From NCBI GenBank assembly GCA_905182715.1, contig CAJJCP010000003.1, forward strand, positions 67,580 through 131,579: a DNA stretch of 64,000 nt, written 5' to 3'. Position numbers and translations under genes: made by a program. Shown piece by piece: positions 1 to 5,488 of the stretch (positions are counted from its first letter, which is position 1; each line of letters starts with the position of its first letter). Under the pieces are notes generated by a model. It was not told where the DNA came from, searched no databases, and saw only the letters and a program-made list of their open reading frames with translations. The DNA comes from an uncultured Candidatus Poseidoniales archaeon. GTDB lineage: Archaea > Thermoplasmatota > Poseidoniia > Poseidoniales > Poseidoniaceae.

Positions 1-267
1 AAATTTCGAGTCGACATGTATTCAAAGAAGATTACCCGAAACCAGCCAGCCCTGATCACCACTCCCCCGATGAGTATGGGGTAAAGTGACTGGAAAAGAC
101 CCGGCCCGATGAGAAGAACTCATCAATCGAGGCCGTCAAGAAAAGACCTTGATAACGACGATATTACACTTGAAAATCCATCGGGTTTTAACATTACAAA
201 AAATGTTGAGAATTGTAAAAAAATACACACTCATCACACCCTTACGGTGTGCCTTTCAGAGGGGGAG

Positions 268-351
268 TGCAGAGGGCAGGATTCGAACCTGCGAACTCAT
301 AGAGACTGGGACCTCATCCCAGCGCCGTTGACCAAGCTTGGCAACCCCTGC
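268..351 (-). tRNA. tRNA-Leu (anticodon GAG), long variable arm, CCA not encoded
   Basis: The reverse complement folds by hand into a cloverleaf. Acceptor is GCAGGGG/CCTCTGC with one G-U. Anticodon stem is CTGGG/CCCAG with loop AUGAGGU (GAG). It has a 13-nt variable arm, T arm GCAGG-UUCGAAU-CCUGC and discriminator A. Confidence 0.9.
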
Positions 352-463
352 TTCAACCAAGCGTTAGAACGCGCGTATATCAATTCCGCGACATGTCCTC
401 AAGGACCTTATCGCCAATTGTGAACTTCAAGAGATACAGAGAAAGCGGACGGTTTAAGGATGA

Positions 464-1846
464 ATGCAAGCGGTCGTAAAGCATCCAACAGGTGATTTCA
501 TGCGCTGGCTCTTCCTTACACTCATCATGCTTCTCGCACCACTCAGCGGTTGTTTTGGGGAAAACACAGTTGAAATTGAAGAACAATTGACCGTAGGCGA
601 AGTCTCAAGCGCAACCCGCGGCCAATACTTGACACTCGAAGTTGATTCAAACGTCGATTGGACCTTTAACCGGTCGGATGGACTTTTCTATGTTGATGAA
701 TTTGGTGTTCTAAGAGATTCAATGGAAATGACGTTTTCTTCTGAAATAAAATTCTTGGAACTTCTCATCCTCGACACGGAAAGAGATTCTGTCGATATAT
801 CTATTTCAGCTGGCACAGAACTCTGGAATGCAACACTCACTCTTCAAGACAGTGACGAATACATGTTGGTTGACGGTAGGCGCGCCTACGAAACAATCGA
901 CATGCTCACCTCGTCCTACAACAACCGCTGGTGTGGCAGTGCTTCAGTTCACGAAGGCGGTTCTGCCTACGAGGCTGCCGCTGAGGCAATGGCTGAGGAG
1001 ATGTGGGATATGGGATTCGATTTTGTCGAAGTCACACGCTATGATGACGACCCCGACCAACTCAATGTGGTAGGATATAATTGGGGGAGAGTCAATCCAG
1101 ATGAATACATCGTCATTGGCGGACATTTCGACATTGCATATGTCTTCACTCCACCGGGTGGCGGCACCAGCGAAGGGGCAAACGACGACACCTCTGGCTC
1201 GACCGTTTCACTCGAAATGGCCCAAGCACTCGCATCGACTGAATTCGATCATACAGTTGTTGCAGCCCTTTGGTCTTGCGAAGAAGAAGGTCTTCTTGGG
1301 TCGCAAGCATATGTTAACCACTTGCCTGAAAATGTGACTGTTAAAGCCTACATGAATTTCGATATGGTCTCTCTCAATTATCCAATCATCCCTCTTTCAG
1401 AGCCATTGGTTGGACCTGGCGGTGAACTCTTTTCAGCATCAAAATATGAATGGGAAATTAGCATCGCAGGGGCAAGTGACAGCAACATGCAACTGATGCA
1501 TGATTGGGTTGGTACGATTATTGAGGACGACCTTTCTTATCAGCCAACTGAAGCCAATCCAATTAACTGGCAGATTGCTGAATCGTGCGCTTCCGACCAT
1601 TGTTCTTTCTTTTCTGCTGACTACCCGACCTTTAATTTCTTCAGTCCAGGGGGAGAAATTTCATTCTGGCAAGAGTGGCATTCGCCATCAGATACGCTTG
1701 ATTTCATGACTGCAAAGGCAGGCGGTCAGGCCGGAATGTCGAGTGGTTTCAACAGCCTCGTTTGGTCTTCACTCGATTTGTTTGTTCGGATTGATAACTC
1801 CGACTCTACTTTCCAGGGTCGCTGGTATGACGCTCCAGCTGCTTGA
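464..1846 (+). CDS. M28-family zinc aminopeptidase, exported (lipobox-like signal)
   Basis: 460-aa ORF. The more likely start is ATG 500, giving MRWLFLTLIMLLAPLSGC. M28 metal-ligand blocks are visible: GGHFD, ANDDTSGS, SCEEEGLLGS, NFDMV and a late WHSPSD. Confidence 0.85.
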   Translation: MQAVVKHPTGDFMRWLFLTLIMLLAPLSGCFGENTVEIEEQLTVGEVSSATRGQYLTLEVDSNVDWTFNRSDGLFYVDEFGVLRDSMEMTFSSEIKFLELLILDTERDSVDISISAGTELWNATLTLQDSDEYMLVDGRRAYETIDMLTSSYNNRWCGSASVHEGGSAYEAAAEAMAEEMWDMGFDFVEVTRYDDDPDQLNVVGYNWGRVNPDEYIVIGGHFDIAYVFTPPGGGTSEGANDDTSGSTVSLEMAQALASTEFDHTVVAALWSCEEEGLLGSQAYVNHLPENVTVKAYMNFDMVSLNYPIIPLSEPLVGPGGELFSASKYEWEISIAGASDSNMQLMHDWVGTIIEDDLSYQPTEANPINWQIAESCASDHCSFFSADYPTFNFFSPGGEISFWQEWHSPSDTLDFMTAKAGGQAGMSSGFNSLVWSSLDLFVRIDNSDSTFQGRWYDAPAA

Positions 1847-1848
1847 CA

Positions 1849-4347
1849 TTAAACAGGCATCCTGCCGCGAAGACGTAACCACGTTTCGCTTCCAAACATC
1901 AAGGCATACAACGATGCGAGCCACAGTGTTGGCCGACTCCACTGTTCGATGAAGCCAATAGAAGCGCTCGACTCCCCAGTCCCTAGAACCAGCAAGATAC
2001 AGAGCCATACCATGGTTACGCCGTGGAGAGCCCAACGTAAGCCCGACATGATGTCCGTCGAATTTGACTGCATTTCGGTAACTTCAACTTTAGTTAAAAC
2101 AGCAGATACGCCCACCAATTTATCCAGTGCTGAACCCCCATTCCAACGAATACGGCCAAGTCTAAATCGGTTTAGAATTTCAATTCCAGTGAAGAGAGTG
2201 ATCCATACAACAACGACTTCGAGTAACGGCTCAGCGCCGAGTAAATCCAGTGTGCCCCAAGTTGACCAAACAAGCAAGCCCCATAACCATCCGACGAGAA
2301 TCAGTTGAAAGGTTCGAGCAAATCGCGTCAAACGTTGCAGTAATTCCGCGTCATGTGAAAGCAGATGTTCGAGCGTAATAACCAGGCCAGTAACGCCAGA
2401 TAGCCCAACAGAGATGAGTAACCACCACCAATCAAGATCGCCGTCGCGCCAAGCGAACATCAGTGCCACTAAGGTCCATGCTAAGGTGATAACAGAAGCC
2501 ACATTTACCGTCGCTTGCATTGTGTAGAGCGGGTCCCGCCCGTCTTTGAGAACAGCCAAGCCACCCATCAATCTGATTTCAAATGCAGAATCATCAACGA
2601 TACCGTGTCCTGCTGCAGTCATACCTCCAGCTGCCTTCAATCGTGCATTACCAACAATACTTTCAGCCTCACCGAGCGCCCATTCATCATCAACACCTTT
2701 GGTGCTCCAAGAAGAGCCCCGACTTGCAGCATGCGCAGCACCAGTGCCTCGATTTTTAGTATTGCCAGAAGAACGAGTTTTCGCCCATGCGCGAATCTCT
2801 TCAGACATGATGTCTTCGACTTGGTCCTCATTGAGCGGGGCGCCGTGGTCAGTGTAGAGCCATCGGCATTGGATTGGAACAGGGGCGGGGTCAACATCGG
2901 GTGCGACCATTTGAAATTGACCAGCGTCAAGAGTCGGTAATTGAGCGACCAAATTTTGGTCCCCTCCACTTTCTTTCAGTAAGTGGCGGACTTTGTCAAT
3001 ATCTTGTGGCTGAGTAAACCTTCCAATGAAGGTGGTATTGGCTTGGGCCAATATTTTGTAATCGACGTCGCTAACGTTTTGTGTCGCTAAAACACAAGCA
3101 ACACCGTATTTTCTCGCTTGCTTGAAGATCAATTTTATCAAATCCTTTGCTGGCGGATTTCGCGGATGTGGTGGAAGATAGGGTGCGACTTCATCCATGA
3201 AGAAGAGCAGTTTAATTTCGTCATCTGCAGGCTGCTGAGTAAGCATCCAATCGTACAATTCACGTGAAAGTTCTTGAACGAAATATTGCTTCTGAGCCTC
3301 ATCTTGGATGGTGTTAAGGTACACGATGTTGAGGGGTATTTTTCCTGGTATCGCAGGTTCAACAAAAGCATCGATATCAATAGGGACGCCATTCGAGAAC
3401 AGCAATTGGTTGACGCCAGAAGAGTACGCTGAGAGCCGGCGTGCTAGATCGTTACGAGTGGCTTTCGTAAGCCGCTCTTCAAAATCTGTCAACCGATGTT
3501 GGGCCATCACTTCTTCCCATGGCGGGGGCTCGATTTTGTCCTCTCCCTCTTCAACTTCATAGAAGCATTCGGGGTAGAGTTTACGAGTAAATTCGAGGTT
3601 AGGCTCACGCACAACGCGGGCTAATGCTTGGAAATCGCCAACATCTAAACCGTGCTTTGTCCCCTGTACTAGAATTTCGTAGAGATACGGTTTGACGACT
3701 TTTCCTTGCGCCTTTTCAACATCATAGCCGGCAAGGCTGGTGAAGCCAGCAGCCACCATATCCCATGCAGTAATGGCTTCTTCAGTGTCAAGGTCGGAAG
3801 GTGGGGCGCGAAAAGGGTCGATACACAACGGCAAACCTTTGCTGCGTAATGGCGTCCAAACCCGGACTTCACACATCTCCATCAATTTCTTCGCACGAAC
3901 AACATCTCCACCCTGGCTTTCAAGTTCATCAAGGTCTATACCGAGTGCAAGACGTGCTAAATCCCCTTGAGGGTCGATGATGAGTGAAGGAATTTTTGCC
4001 AATGCGGCCTCTTCAATGAGGGCTTTTGCCATGACGGTTTTTCCTGAACCTGTCGAACCCAACATTGCAGCGTGACGTGCTAACACCATTGGTTTGATGT
4101 CAATGGGCTCTCCAGTGTCTCTTCTTGTACCGAGAAACATACCTTTTGGTTTGAATTTCTTCTTCGGTTTACCTGTTGAAACAGGCTCTTTCAGAACCGT
4201 TTCCTCGGGTGAAAGAATATCCCCGACTAAATCGGCAAGACTTCGCTCATCAGGGTCAGCGGTGGCTTCATCGGAATCACCGTTTTCAGACACCATATGC
4301 GAGGCAAACCGGTTGGAGGTCTTCAAAGGCGCGCTGATAGGGGGCAA
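1849..4347 (-). CDS. HerA/FtsK-superfamily (DUF87-like) P-loop ATPase fused to a C-terminal polytopic membrane domain
   Basis: 832-aa ORF. Walker A is GSTGSGKT, Walker B is LLFFMDEVAPY, and an LATQNVSDVD sensor-like block follows. The last ~250 aa contain about six hydrophobic helices, e.g. VASVITLAWTLVALMFAW, WWWLLISVGLSGVTGLVITL, FQLILVGWLWGLLVW and VTMVWLCILLVLG. Confidence 0.75.
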   Translation of the reverse strand: MPPISAPLKTSNRFASHMVSENGDSDEATADPDERSLADLVGDILSPEETVLKEPVSTGKPKKKFKPKGMFLGTRRDTGEPIDIKPMVLARHAAMLGSTGSGKTVMAKALIEEAALAKIPSLIIDPQGDLARLALGIDLDELESQGGDVVRAKKLMEMCEVRVWTPLRSKGLPLCIDPFRAPPSDLDTEEAITAWDMVAAGFTSLAGYDVEKAQGKVVKPYLYEILVQGTKHGLDVGDFQALARVVREPNLEFTRKLYPECFYEVEEGEDKIEPPPWEEVMAQHRLTDFEERLTKATRNDLARRLSAYSSGVNQLLFSNGVPIDIDAFVEPAIPGKIPLNIVYLNTIQDEAQKQYFVQELSRELYDWMLTQQPADDEIKLLFFMDEVAPYLPPHPRNPPAKDLIKLIFKQARKYGVACVLATQNVSDVDYKILAQANTTFIGRFTQPQDIDKVRHLLKESGGDQNLVAQLPTLDAGQFQMVAPDVDPAPVPIQCRWLYTDHGAPLNEDQVEDIMSEEIRAWAKTRSSGNTKNRGTGAAHAASRGSSWSTKGVDDEWALGEAESIVGNARLKAAGGMTAAGHGIVDDSAFEIRLMGGLAVLKDGRDPLYTMQATVNVASVITLAWTLVALMFAWRDGDLDWWWLLISVGLSGVTGLVITLEHLLSHDAELLQRLTRFARTFQLILVGWLWGLLVWSTWGTLDLLGAEPLLEVVVVWITLFTGIEILNRFRLGRIRWNGGSALDKLVGVSAVLTKVEVTEMQSNSTDIMSGLRWALHGVTMVWLCILLVLGTGESSASIGFIEQWSRPTLWLASLYALMFGSETWLRLRGRMPV

Positions 4348-4387: not shown

Positions 4388-5488
4388 ATGGAGCGAATCC
4401 CAATGGCCCGACCATCGTGGGACGAGCCAATGCGTTTAGCGGCGATGGCAACCCTCGACTCGAAACAATGGGTCAAGGGAGCGCAAGGCAAAGCGTTCGG
4501 CAAAGCATTCGCTGAACACTGTGGAGCGCTAAGTGCCACACCTTGTCAAAACGGCTCATCTGCACTGTGGGCCGCACTGAGAATTGCAAACATCGGGCCA
4601 GGCGATGAGGTAATTGTACCCTCATTTACGTTCATTTCTTCCACGACGTGTGCTCTTTTAGTTGGTGCAACGCCCGTCTTCGTCGACATTGAACCCGATT
4701 ACTATTGTTTAGATCTTAATGAAGTCAAAGCGGCAATTACACCGAAGACCAAAGCGGTTATCGGTGTTCATTTATTTGGCCAACCCTATGACCAAGGGCT
4801 CGTTACGCTTTGTCAAAATCACAATTTAGTTTTGATCGAGGATGCGGCTCAAGCACATGGAGCCGAACAAAAATTCTCTGATGGTAGCATCCGCAAGGCA
4901 GGGGCAATGGGTGATATCGGCTGTTTCTCATTTTTCCCTTCAAAGAATATGGCAGTAGGCGGGGAAGGCGGAATGCTCACCACAACTCACCCTGATTATC
5001 AGGATAAAATTGTAGGAATTACCAATCACGGCCGCAGCCCTGACCTTGAAGCAATACAACTTGGAAGCAACCTCAGGATGTCTGAAGTTTCAGCATCCAT
5101 CGGACTCGTTCAGCTTTCAAATCTCGATGTTTGGGTCGAACTTCGTCGACAAAACGCTGCTTTATTCACGCAAGCATTGGCCGATCACCCTACCCTCCAA
5201 GCCCCAACCGTACGGCCTCATTCCACACATGCATGGCATCAATATTGTATTCGTACCGATCATCCAGATGCACTTGTAACTCATCTTGACGAATTGGGGA
5301 TTGATGCACGTCGCTATTACACAACGCCTTGCCATCAACAATACATCTACAAGAACCATGCACAATTCACACAACACTTTGAAAACACGCACATAGCGTC
5401 AAAGTCATTAGTTGCAATTCCAGTCATGCACGAACTTCAAGAAGATGAAAAACAACGAATCGTTACAGCACTACGAAATTACCGGTAA
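4388..5488 (+). CDS. DegT/DnrJ/EryC1/StrS-family PLP-dependent sugar aminotransferase
   Basis: 366-aa ORF with family blocks GDEVIVPSFTFISS, LIEDAAQAHGA and the FSFFPSKN lysine motif. Confidence 0.9.
   Translation: MERIPMARPSWDEPMRLAAMATLDSKQWVKGAQGKAFGKAFAEHCGALSATPCQNGSSALWAALRIANIGPGDEVIVPSFTFISSTTCALLVGATPVFVDIEPDYYCLDLNEVKAAITPKTKAVIGVHLFGQPYDQGLVTLCQNHNLVLIEDAAQAHGAEQKFSDGSIRKAGAMGDIGCFSFFPSKNMAVGGEGGMLTTTHPDYQDKIVGITNHGRSPDLEAIQLGSNLRMSEVSASIGLVQLSNLDVWVELRRQNAALFTQALADHPTLQAPTVRPHSTHAWHQYCIRTDHPDALVTHLDELGIDARRYYTTPCHQQYIYKNHAQFTQHFENTHIASKSLVAIPVMHELQEDEKQRIVTALRNYR

What the first reader, a model, noticed from the sequence alone, without database searches (positions are those of the whole stretch)
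1849..4347. HerA/FtsK-like ATPase fused to a six-helix membrane domain, with no NurA or other partner nearby
The N-terminal ~560 aa carry the HerA/FtsK-type P-loop features: GSTGSGKT, hhhhDE (LLFFMDEV) and LATQNVSD. They are preceded by a ~95-aa charged, disordered leader. The C-terminal ~250 aa form about six TM helices rich in Trp.

- Classical archaeal HerA is soluble and paired with NurA/Mre11/Rad50.
- FtsK has its TM domain at the N-terminus.
- The crenarchaeal Ced DNA-import system uses a membrane-associated HerA/VirB4-like ATPase together with a separate polytopic protein.

A single polypeptide combining both parts could be a self-contained nucleic-acid or polypeptide translocase. The neighbours (M28 peptidase convergent, sugar aminotransferase divergent) give no functional hint, so this is an orphan.
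Basis: partly seen in the sequence, partly recalled or inferred. Interest (0 to 1): 0.6.

Follow-up and report, generated by a model that had tools for sequence, protein, structure and literature searches.

The report
Membrane-anchored HerA-like motor ATPase
A real, strongly conserved gene of ocean-surface Marine Group II archaea joins a HerA/FtsK-type ring ATPase, through a floppy linker, to a six-helix membrane domain of unknown fold. It is probably a membrane-tethered motor for DNA or another polymer, but its function is untested.

Summary
Window 1849-4296 (- strand) encodes one 815-aa protein; the true start is ATG 4296, not TTG 4347. It consists of:
- a 52-aa disordered leader;
- a HerA/FtsK-superfamily ATPase without a HAS barrel, with Walker A, Walker B, Arg finger and sensor all invariant;
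- a roughly 60-aa disordered linker;
- six TM helices, with N and C termini both in the cytoplasm.

It is not an assembly join. The full-length gene is single-copy in about 70 of 75 Poseidoniaceae (MGIIa) genomes, with conserved synteny and dN/dS of 0.01-0.06 in the ATPase, linker and membrane parts.

It is the only HerA/FtsK-superfamily gene in these genomes. NurA and true FtsK are absent, and most MGIIb genomes lack the gene.

The membrane domain has no Pfam, PDB or viral fold relative. It occurs once without the ATPase.

Sister ATPases in other Thermoplasmatota carry soluble tails instead, such as zinc ribbons. No gene neighbour is conserved across clades.

Best reading: a membrane-tethered ring motor, most likely acting on DNA. 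A rigid, pore-aligned channel is not supported. It is a new variant of a known kind, and no description was found in the searched literature.

The parts
1849..4296 (-). Whole gene, 815 aa plus stop. The true start is ATG 4296. The ORF finder's TTG at 4347 adds 17 residues that orthologues lack.
4141..4296 (-). N-terminal leader (residues 18-69 of the 832-aa frame). It is acidic, then has a short conserved SLADLVGDILSP helix, then a basic KPKKKFKPKG stretch. It is disordered, restricted to Poseidoniaceae-type members, and under relaxed selection (dN/dS 0.2-0.5).
2764..4140 (-). HerA/FtsK-superfamily RecA-like ATPase domain (residues 70-528) with a helical insert at about residues 188-310. There is no HAS barrel.
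4036..4059 (-). Walker A motif GSTGSGKT (residues 97-104). G97, G100, G102, K103 and T104 are invariant in 27 family members.
3187..3210 (-). Walker B motif LLFFMDEV (residues 380-387). D385 and E386 are invariant.
3067..3117 (-). ARKYGVACVLATQNVSD (residues 411-427). By my own comparison with the FtsK 'ARAAGIH...ATQRP' block, R412 would be the trans-acting Arg finger and Q423 the sensor. Both are invariant.
   Evidence: the motif correspondence rests on established knowledge of FtsK/HerA
2584..2763 (-). Gly/Ala/Ser-rich disordered linker (residues 529-588). pLDDT is below 40. Length ranges from 18 to 97 aa across the clade, but dN/dS is 0.03-0.06 within Poseidoniaceae.
2524..2583 (-). Conserved cytoplasmic pre-membrane motif FEIRLMGGLAVLKDGRDPLY (residues 589-608). 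The family consensus is E.xLxGGLxxLxDxxDPL and D605 is invariant. Its last three residues overlap the start of helix 1 in the model.
1870..2532 (-). Six-helix membrane domain (residues 606-826), with N and C termini both cytoplasmic. It has no Pfam, PDB or BFVD relative.
4388..5488 (+). Divergent neighbour, a DegT/DnrJ/EryC1-family sugar aminotransferase. It is conserved next to the gene in 76 of 80 Poseidoniaceae loci, with a median gap of 56 bp. This is context only, with no shown functional link.
464..1846 (+). Convergent neighbour, an M28 peptidase. This position varies among relatives. It is context only.

Best explanation
**Shown**
- The gene encodes a catalytically intact HerA/FtsK-superfamily P-loop ATPase with no HAS barrel.
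- A disordered linker ties the ATPase to a six-helix membrane domain. Both ends of that domain, and the ATPase, lie in the cytoplasm.
- It is a vertically inherited, single-copy core gene of Poseidoniaceae (MGIIa) under strong purifying selection.
- It is the only member of this ATPase superfamily in these genomes.

**Inferred from family knowledge**
- Like HerA, FtsK and VirB4, it assembles into a ring (hexamer). ATP sites lie between subunits and are completed by the invariant R412.
- It uses ATP to thread a polymer through its central pore.
- The membrane domain, 36 helices per hexamer, holds the motor at the inner face of the membrane.

**Inferred, most likely substrate**
- The substrate is most likely DNA. 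The protein would then act like a topologically inverted FtsK/SpoIIIE (motor, linker, membrane anchor). It could clear or move DNA at the membrane or division site, or feed DNA to or from the envelope.
- The flexible, length-variable linker and the modular tails of sister families argue that the membrane part is a tether or adaptor. A rigid channel stacked on the ATPase pore is less likely.
For: **ATPase identity**
- Pfam DUF87 scores 45.1 bits against a cut-off of 23.2.
- The best sequence matches in the PDB are HerA proteins, at E 1e-12.
- The AlphaFold model of residues 70-528 has pLDDT of about 80-93.
- Foldseek top hits are HerA-NurA 9x1m, Sulfolobus HerA 4d2i, SIR2-HerA 8wiv and VirB4 4ag5, at E 1e-12 to 1e-9.
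- Walker A, Walker B, R412 and Q423 are invariant in 27 sequences that go down to 31% identity.

**Membrane part**
- Six helices are predicted.
- The positive-inside rule fits.

**Real fusion**
- Full-length copies occur in 70 of about 75 family genomes, including a one-contig 2.1-Mb genome.
- 80 loci in named Poseidoniaceae MAGs carry it.
- The membrane-fused clade is monophyletic, with 97% support over 18 representatives.

**Constraint**
- dN/dS is 0.01-0.03 for the ATPase, 0.03-0.06 for the linker and 0.03-0.04 for the membrane domain.

**Sole superfamily member**
- It is the only DUF87 hit in 29 of 29 high-quality family genomes.
- NurA is found in 0 of 29.
- FtsK_SpoIIIE scores above its cut-off in 0 of 16.

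**Tether rather than channel**
- The linker has pLDDT below 40 and ranges from 18 to 97 aa.
- A stand-alone membrane domain exists in one MGIIb genome.
- Sister ATPases carry zinc-ribbon/Lys-rich tails or other soluble tails.
- Membrane fusion arose at least twice in this ATPase clade.

**Lean towards DNA**
- All the closest characterised relatives move DNA.
- Sister subfamilies carry zinc-ribbon plus Lys-rich tails, which are typical of nucleic-acid binders.
Against: - No experiment and no structure of an oligomer exists. The hexamer and the threading mechanism are inferred only.
- No DNA-recognition module is present: no FtsK gamma domain and no HAS barrel.
- I could not map the residues that contact DNA in Thermococcus HerA onto this protein.
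- No neighbour linked to DNA transactions is conserved.
- Most MGIIb genomes lack the gene and any DUF87 protein. It therefore cannot be an essential chromosome-segregation factor for the order.
- The superfamily also includes protein-secretion motors (VirB4, EssC).
- The linker is conserved within Poseidoniaceae, so it may be more than a passive tether.
Confidence: 0.5

Rival explanations
1. It is a protein or peptide secretion motor, or a membrane-protein handling motor. In this reading a VirB4/EssC-like ring ATPase energises export or assembly of a surface component, with the six-helix domain as part of the conduit.
For: - The HerA/FtsK superfamily includes VirB4 and VirD4. VirB4 4ag5 is among the fold matches, and TrwB_AAD_bind and AAA_10 give weak Pfam hits.
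- The genomic region is rich in exported proteins (beta-propeller, NHL and M28 proteins).
- Published archaeal SPEARE proteins fuse a VirB4/TraG-like ATPase to a membrane-spanning surface protein.
Against: - Scores against curated VirB4 and TraC models are far below their cut-offs (28 against 643).
- No pilin, secretin-like or other secretion genes are conserved nearby in any clade.
- HerA proteins, not VirB4, are the best sequence and fold matches.
Confidence: 0.15
2. It is a single-gene antiviral defence. In this reading a HerA-type sensor or motor is coupled to a membrane-perturbing effector domain, by analogy with SIR2-HerA, DUF4297-HerA and MADS Mad7/Mad8.
For: - Among the curated libraries, the best matches are defence HerA models: PADLOC HerA at 2.7e-22 and mad8 at 1.8e-19, the latter covering 288 of 314 profile positions.
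- NCBIfam HerA_antiphage_2 scores 2e-12.
- The variable C-terminal modules in the wider ATPase clade (STAND/TPR, zinc ribbons, TM domains) resemble the modularity of conflict systems.
Against: - It is a core, single-copy, syntenic gene in about 93% of family genomes.
- dN/dS is 0.01-0.06 and GC is ordinary at 0.489 against 0.463 for the genome. Defence genes are usually patchy, sit in islands and evolve fast.
- No SIR2, DUF4297 or nuclease partner lies nearby.
- NCBIfam defence scores are far below their cut-offs (47 against 850).
- There are no relatives in the phage collection and only three weak ones in plasmids.
Confidence: 0.1
3. It plays a role in the envelope or glycan pathway, suggested by the conserved divergent DegT sugar aminotransferase. 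In this reading the motor would help export or organise a surface polymer.
For: - DegT lies directly upstream and divergent in 76 of 80 Poseidoniaceae loci, with a median gap of 56 bp.
- A Gfo/Idh/MocA oxidoreductase lies nearby in relatives.
Against: - The pairing is absent in every other clade that carries the fusion, so it may be plain synteny at family depth.
- To my knowledge, no HerA/FtsK-type ATPase is known to move glycans.
Confidence: 0.05
4. It is an artefact: an assembly join, or a frameshift-fused pair of separate genes.
For: - The collection holds some shorter gene calls, from 271 to 685 aa.
Against: - Those short calls are truncated copies of the same protein. They are collinear with the full-length sequence and begin inside the ATPase or linker region, with no independent N-terminus.
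- The uninterrupted full-length frame recurs in hundreds of independent assemblies, single-cell genomes and a one-contig genome.
- Purifying selection runs across the junction.
Confidence: 0.01

Closest known systems
HerA hexameric DNA translocase (Sulfolobus 4d2i; Thermococcus HerA-NurA 9x1l/9x1m; bacterial defence HerA 8wiv, 8xau)
   Same: - It shares the RecA-like core with Walker A, Walker B, Arg finger and sensor.
- HerA proteins are the best sequence matches (E 1e-12) and fold matches (E 1e-12 to 1e-9).
- It matches the Pfam DUF87 family.
   Different: - There is no HAS barrel.
- No NurA, SIR2 or DUF4297 partner is present.
- Identity is only 15-20%.
- Scores of 28-47 bits fall far below the curated HerA equivalog cut-offs of 800-970.
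- It carries a C-terminal linker and a six-helix membrane domain.
FtsK / SpoIIIE membrane-anchored DNA pumps of bacteria
   Same: - The design logic matches: a polytopic membrane anchor, a long low-complexity linker and a ring motor of the same superfamily.
- By my reading, the ARKYG...ATQN block corresponds to the FtsK Arg-finger/sensor block.
   Different: - The order is inverted: motor at the N-terminus, anchor at the C-terminus.
- It has six helices of unrelated sequence, where FtsK has four.
- There is no gamma (KOPS-reading) domain.
- PF01580 scores 17.8 bits, below its cut-off of 24.
- It is not universal in its order.
Ced DNA-import system of Crenarchaeota (CedA membrane protein plus CedB/CedD ATPases)
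   Same: - It is an archaeal, membrane-associated HerA/VirB4-type ATPase, and a polytopic membrane component is present.
   Different: - In Ced, the ATPase and the membrane protein are separate genes in one locus. Here they form one chain.
- Scores of 29.5 and 41.6 bits fall far below the CedB and CedD cut-offs of 700 and 600.
- The membrane domain has no detectable relative.
SPEARE giant surface proteins of DPANN archaea (Hamm 2019, PMC6642349; Reva 2023, PMC10266531)
   Same: - It is a single archaeal polypeptide that joins a cytoplasmic VirB4/HerA-superfamily ATPase to a membrane-spanning part.
   Different: - SPEARE proteins have a huge ectodomain, one TM helix, and then the ATPase at the C-terminus.
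- Here there is no ectodomain, the ATPase comes first, and a six-helix bundle comes last.
- The lineage and the likely role differ.
Soluble sister ATPases of other Thermoplasmatota (unnamed 'ATP-binding protein' / COG0433; about 650-865 aa)
   Same: - The ATPase core is 39-50% identical and is followed by the same disordered linker.
   Different: - Their C-termini are zinc-ribbon/Lys-rich tails, a doubled 'YLPxW...IDGVxGKE' domain, or STAND/TPR modules, rather than the membrane domain.
- These proteins are also uncharacterised.

Membership tests
Pfam DUF87 / HerA-FtsK superfamily | RecA-like P-loop core scoring above the Pfam gathering threshold, with Walker A, Walker B and Arg finger | tested here: met
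   PF01935 scores 45.1 bits against a cut-off of 23.2. The motifs are invariant. The fold matches HerA and VirB4.
Canonical HerA (HerA-NurA end resection) | N-terminal HAS barrel | tested here: not met
   Only a 52-aa disordered leader precedes the core. The Pfam match starts at residue 81. Most relatives start directly at the core.
Canonical HerA (HerA-NurA end resection) | NurA nuclease partner (usually also Mre11/Rad50) in the genome or operon | tested here: not met
   NurA (PF09376) is found in 0 of 29 high-quality family genomes and is absent from the own genome. Mre11 and Rad50 were not searched.
Canonical HerA (HerA-NurA end resection) | Score above the curated NCBIfam equivalog cut-off | tested here: not met
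   helicase_HerA scores 27.7 against 970 and HerA_Thermprot 29.9 against 800.
FtsK/SpoIIIE | N-terminal membrane anchor, C-terminal alpha/beta motor and gamma wHTH domain; PF01580 above cut-off | tested here: not met
   The anchor is C-terminal. PF01580 scores 17.8 bits against a cut-off of 24. No domain follows the motor except the linker and the TM helices.
VirB4/VirD4 type IV secretion ATPases | Curated model score, plus neighbouring T4SS or conjugation genes | tested here: not met
   TIGR00929 scores 28 against 643. Pfam found no T4SS or conjugation families in any neighbour scanned.
Ced DNA import (CedB/CedD) | Curated model score, plus an adjacent CedA-type membrane protein | tested here: not met
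   CedB scores 29.5 against 700 and CedD 41.6 against 600. No polytopic partner gene lies adjacent. CedA itself was not searched genome-wide.
HerA-based antiphage systems (SIR2-HerA, DUF4297-HerA, MADS Mad7/8) | Adjacent effector (SIR2, DUF4297 or nuclease), patchy island-like distribution, curated score | tested here: not met
   No such neighbour is present. The gene is core and syntenic. HerA_antiphage_2 scores 46.7 against 850. PADLOC HerA and mad8 hits reach only 68-77 bits.
DUF853 / YjgR-type HerA-like (PF05872) | Full-length match to the 502-position profile | tested here: inconclusive
   The score of 29.3 bits passes the cut-off of 22, but only profile positions 7-106 align. YjgR 11kk matches only the P-loop region, at E 2.6e-5.
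Ring (hexameric) translocase | Oligomeric ring with a central pore that threads substrate | not testable with these tools
   No multimer modelling was available. This is inferred from the invariant trans-acting Arg finger candidate R412 and from family knowledge.

The most novel reading that the evidence does not exclude
The protein is a complete, single-polypeptide archaeal DNA transporter that arose independently of FtsK and Ced. Six copies of the new six-helix domain would form the membrane conduit, or dock to one. The HerA-type ring would pump DNA through it for uptake, export, or septal clearance. This would give the ocean's most abundant surface archaea a previously unknown route of DNA traffic.
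Probability: 0.15. Interest if true: 0.75.

Novelty: new variant of a known kind. Interest (0 to 1): 0.45.

Why it matters
Poseidoniaceae (MGIIa) are among the most abundant archaea in the surface ocean, and none has been cultured. This gene is a core family marker under very strong constraint.

It is their only HerA/FtsK-type motor, and they lack both HerA-NurA and FtsK. Whatever it does with DNA or another polymer at the membrane is therefore likely to be a lineage-defining piece of cell biology.

It also adds a new, unclassified membrane domain. It is a clear natural example of how one ATPase core is re-targeted by swapping C-terminal modules: membrane domains on at least two occasions, zinc ribbons, and STAND/TPR.

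The protein is compact enough for heterologous expression and cryo-EM, so the question can be tested directly.

Tried and rejected
**Identifying the membrane domain.** Nothing consistent or significant came from any of these:
- Pfam on 20 members at E up to 5;
- a profile against PDB sequences;
- Foldseek of a dedicated model against the PDB, best E 0.67;
- Foldseek of the same model against BFVD, best E 0.41.

**Conserved partner genes.**
- I compared neighbourhoods in Poseidoniaceae, a 52%-identity MGIIb-type clade, a 33%-identity clade, and family f3 and f2 genomes.
- Only DegT is conserved, and only within Poseidoniaceae.
- A PLD-like/LTD protein lies directly upstream in one f2 genome. 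It has only a 71-aa partial match (45% identity, E 2e-9) in the own genome, within the window but about 37 kb from the gene, so I dropped it as a lead.

**Mobile-element or viral origin.**
- There is no match in 50,697 phage records and only three weak plasmid matches.
- PHROG hits are generic: an unknown-function family and a terminase family, at 1e-23 and 5e-15.
- GC is ordinary.

**'Stand-alone' membrane-domain proteins.** Of the shorter hits, the five I read are truncated gene calls of the fused protein. The other short hits lie on short contigs and were not read. Only the G015 protein is clearly ATPase-less.

**Mapping DNA-contact residues.** I could not map the Thermococcus HerA contact residues (Gln262, Thr325, Arg328, Lys332).

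**Literature.**
- Three full-text searches found no description of this protein.
- The Iyer et al. 2004 FtsK-HerA classification paper is not held.

Full report
**1. What is in the sequence**

The six-frame ORF list shows an 832-codon frame at 1849-4347 on the minus strand, starting at TTG. It translates without stops. All residue numbers in this report follow this 832-aa frame.

Orthologues from independent assemblies are 810-816 aa long and start MVSE(N/D/E).... This corresponds to ATG at 4296. The gene is therefore 1849-4296 and encodes 815 aa.

A 19-residue hydropathy scan finds five segments above threshold between residues 611 and 800, and a sixth lies at about 805-825. Trp makes up 7.3% of residues 640-832.

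The neighbours are an M28 peptidase (464-1846, convergent, two bases from the stop codon) and a DegT/DnrJ/EryC1 aminotransferase (4388-5488, divergent).

**2. Domain anatomy**

I predicted the structure with AlphaFold2 on a 27-sequence alignment that goes down to 31% identity. The model has these parts:

| Part | Residues | Model quality |
|---|---|---|
| Leader | 1-69 | disordered |
| ATPase | 70-528 | confident, blocks mostly pLDDT 80-93 |
| Linker | 529-595 | disordered, pLDDT 27-48 |
| Six long helices | 606-634, 640-662, 667-697, 706-730, 753-789, 796-826 | moderately confident |

A separate model of the membrane part alone reached pLDDT 77 and pTM 0.71, with the same six helices.

Across the family, the loops predicted to be cytoplasmic carry on average 1.5, 6.8 and 2.6 Lys+Arg. 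The outer loops carry 0.1, 0.3 and 0.2. The domain therefore has both termini in the cytoplasm, which places the ATPase there too.

A conserved motif (E.xLxGGLxxLxDxxDPL, with D605 invariant) sits just before helix 1.

**3. The ATPase**

- Pfam DUF87 (HerA central domain) is above threshold. HerA_C and TrwB_AAD_bind also pass their cut-offs but align only to part of the protein, and FtsK_SpoIIIE is below threshold.
- Scores against curated NCBIfam equivalogs for HerA, CedB/CedD and VirB4 are 12-47 bits, against cut-offs of 325-970. It belongs to none of these named families.
- The best PDB sequence matches are HerA proteins of defence systems and of archaea, with E-values from 1e-12 to 1e-5.
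- Foldseek on the model returns HerA-NurA (9x1m), Sulfolobus HerA (4d2i), SIR2-HerA, DUF4297-HerA and VirB4, with E-values from 1e-12 to 1e-9 and 15-20% identity.
- There is no HAS barrel.
- Walker A (K103/T104), Walker B (D385/E386), R412 and Q423 are invariant in all 27 aligned sequences. By my reading, the RKYG...ATQ block corresponds to the FtsK Arg-finger and sensor block. The enzyme looks active, and an Arg finger acting in trans implies oligomerisation.

**4. Not an artefact; who has it**

- The full-length protein occurs on hundreds of contigs from ENA, JGI, NCBI, Logan and Tara. Its source labels are 'ATP-binding protein', 'DUF853 family protein' or 'hypothetical', from Candidatus Poseidoniales and Poseidoniaceae.
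- Eighty loci in named Poseidoniaceae and Poseidonia MAGs and single-cell genomes carry it.
- In a sample of 151 genomes of the order, 70 of about 75 genomes of the window's own family have one full-length copy. One of these is a single-contig 2.1-Mb genome. Only a handful of the sister family f3 (MGIIb) have it.
- Against close orthologues, dN/dS is 0.01-0.03 for the ATPase, 0.03-0.06 for the linker, 0.03-0.04 for the membrane part and 0.2-0.5 for the leader.
- Gene GC is 0.489 against 0.463 for the genome.
- The gene is the only DUF87 hit in 29 of 29 high-quality family genomes. NurA is absent from all of them and from the own genome. No genome has an FtsK_SpoIIIE match above the cut-off.
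- Most MGIIb genomes have no DUF87 protein at all.

**5. The wider family and the origin of the fusion**

An exhaustive search of 1.84 billion cluster representatives found 530 representatives at E ≤ 1e-30.

- The nearest hits (P0122, P0125-P0131, P0154, P0159; 31-65% identity) share the same membrane domain and pre-membrane motif.
- Most of the rest are soluble proteins of about 650-800 aa. They have the same core and a disordered linker, but other C-terminal modules: zinc ribbons with Lys-rich spacers, a doubled 'YLPxW...IDGVxGKE' domain, or STAND/TPR.
- In a 401-genome sample of the phylum, the membrane domain appears only in Poseidoniales. Five other families carry the soluble sisters.
- A tree of 137 ATPase domains puts all carriers of this membrane domain in one clade with 97% support. 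Two derivatives in that clade have replaced tails (P0161, P0162).
- Three proteins with a different six-helix C-terminus (P0151, P0153, P0156) fall elsewhere in the tree. Membrane anchoring therefore arose at least twice.
- One MGIIb genome (G015) encodes the membrane domain alone, behind a 180-aa acidic tail. That genome has no DUF87 ATPase.
- Of the other short 'stand-alone' hits, the five I read are truncated gene calls.

**6. The membrane domain is unclassified**

None of these searches found a relative:
- Pfam, where no family was hit by more than one of 20 members even at E ≤ 5;
- a profile against PDB sequences;
- Foldseek against the PDB, best E 0.67;
- Foldseek against BFVD, best E 0.41.

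**7. Genomic context**

Within Poseidoniaceae the divergent DegT gene is adjacent in 76 of 80 loci, with a median gap of 56 bp. A CYTH-like gene, a membrane wHTH regulator and a beta-propeller gene follow it. The downstream position varies.

In the other clades the neighbours are unrelated:
- primase-like and unknown genes;
- a 3-hydroxyacyl-CoA dehydrogenase and a giant protein;
- a bPH-domain protein and PP2C, or a PLD-like/LTD protein and a metallo-beta-lactamase-fold protein.

No partner is conserved across clades. There are no matches in the phage collection and only three weak ones in plasmids.

**8. Interpretation**

*Shown.* This is an intact HerA/FtsK-superfamily ATPase tethered by a disordered linker to a cytoplasm-in/cytoplasm-out six-helix domain. 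It is core, vertically inherited and strongly constrained in MGIIa, and it is the sole member of its superfamily there.

*Inferred.* It forms a ring and threads a polymer at the inner face of the membrane. I favour DNA, at roughly even odds, for two reasons:
- all the closest characterised relatives move DNA;
- sister subfamilies carry zinc-ribbon/Lys-rich tails.

The layout is an inverted FtsK/SpoIIIE.

- the linker is variable and disordered;
- the C-terminal modules are interchangeable;
- a stand-alone membrane domain exists.

One caveat is that the linker is conserved within Poseidoniaceae.

*Rivals.*
- A protein-secretion motor.
- A defence system. PADLOC HerA and mad8 give the strongest E-values among the four HMM libraries scanned, after one PHROG family of unknown function. 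Mad7/Mad8 is described as an ATPase-nuclease module. The core, syntenic, slowly evolving pattern argues against defence.
- A glycan-related role suggested by DegT.

**9. Novelty**

Three full-text searches found no description of this protein. Membrane-anchored motors of this superfamily are well known: FtsK, VirD4, EssC, CedB, and the DPANN SPEARE proteins. This is therefore a new variant of a known kind, with a new membrane domain.

Earlier agents of this scan reached the same reading on orthologues in other genomes. That is not independent evidence. Their 'MGIII' attribution was not confirmed in my phylum sample.

**10. Limits**

- No multimer modelling was available.
- Model coordinates could not be used to map pore residues.
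- The taxonomic origin of the 31-39% identity clades is unknown, apart from one 'Thermoplasmatota archaeon' label.

Noticed in passing
L017:5469-6818 (genome G015, an MGIIb genus): A 449-aa protein consisting of a roughly 180-aa extremely acidic, disordered N-terminus followed by the same pre-membrane motif and six-helix domain. It is about 49% identical to the window's domain. That genome has no DUF87 ATPase. Its neighbours are an RCC1-repeat surface protein, a SIR2-family gene and an MscS channel.
   Followed up: partly
L021:10170-13379 (genome G004, family f2), directly upstream of the fusion gene on the same strand: A 1069-aa exported protein with three Lamin-tail domains and two PLD-like (PLDc_2) domains lies 66 bp upstream of the 57%-identity orthologue. 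It could be an extracellular nuclease or phospholipase. In the window's own genome it has only a 71-aa partial match (45% identity), about 37 kb from the gene.
   Followed up: partly
L106:3425-9874: A 2149-aa protein with a weak Tubulin-family hit lies two genes downstream of a 33%-identity member of the fusion family, in an unidentified marine archaeon.
   Followed up: no
window 109-423 (+): A 104-aa ORF with no Pfam match is about 81% identical in 54 of 80 Poseidoniaceae loci. It always lies downstream of the ATPase gene, with one variable gene in between. It is a strongly conserved small protein of unknown function.
   Followed up: partly
P0161 and P0162 (metagenome representatives): These two proteins sit inside the membrane-fused clade in the ATPase tree. 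The six-helix domain has been replaced by a different C-terminus with only one or two hydrophobic helices and a long polar region.
   Followed up: no
P0151, P0153, P0156 (metagenome representatives): These are related ATPases of 828-1252 aa with very long acidic or repetitive linkers and a different six-helix C-terminus. In the tree they fall outside the main fused clade, so they represent an independent membrane fusion.
   Followed up: partly
G012:C9:86974-87318 (same genus as the window): A second, partial DUF87-like frame matches residues 70-184 at 48% identity. It may be a truncated paralogue or a pseudogene.
   Followed up: no
L103:1-13664 (contig carrying the 741-aa, 52%-identity orthologue): Here the fusion gene sits among a run of unannotated genes (838, 245, 169, 431 and 236 aa), together with a primase-small-subunit-like gene and a DksA/TraR zinc-finger plus SHOCT protein. 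It is unclear whether this is ordinary chromosome or an integrated element.
   Followed up: partly
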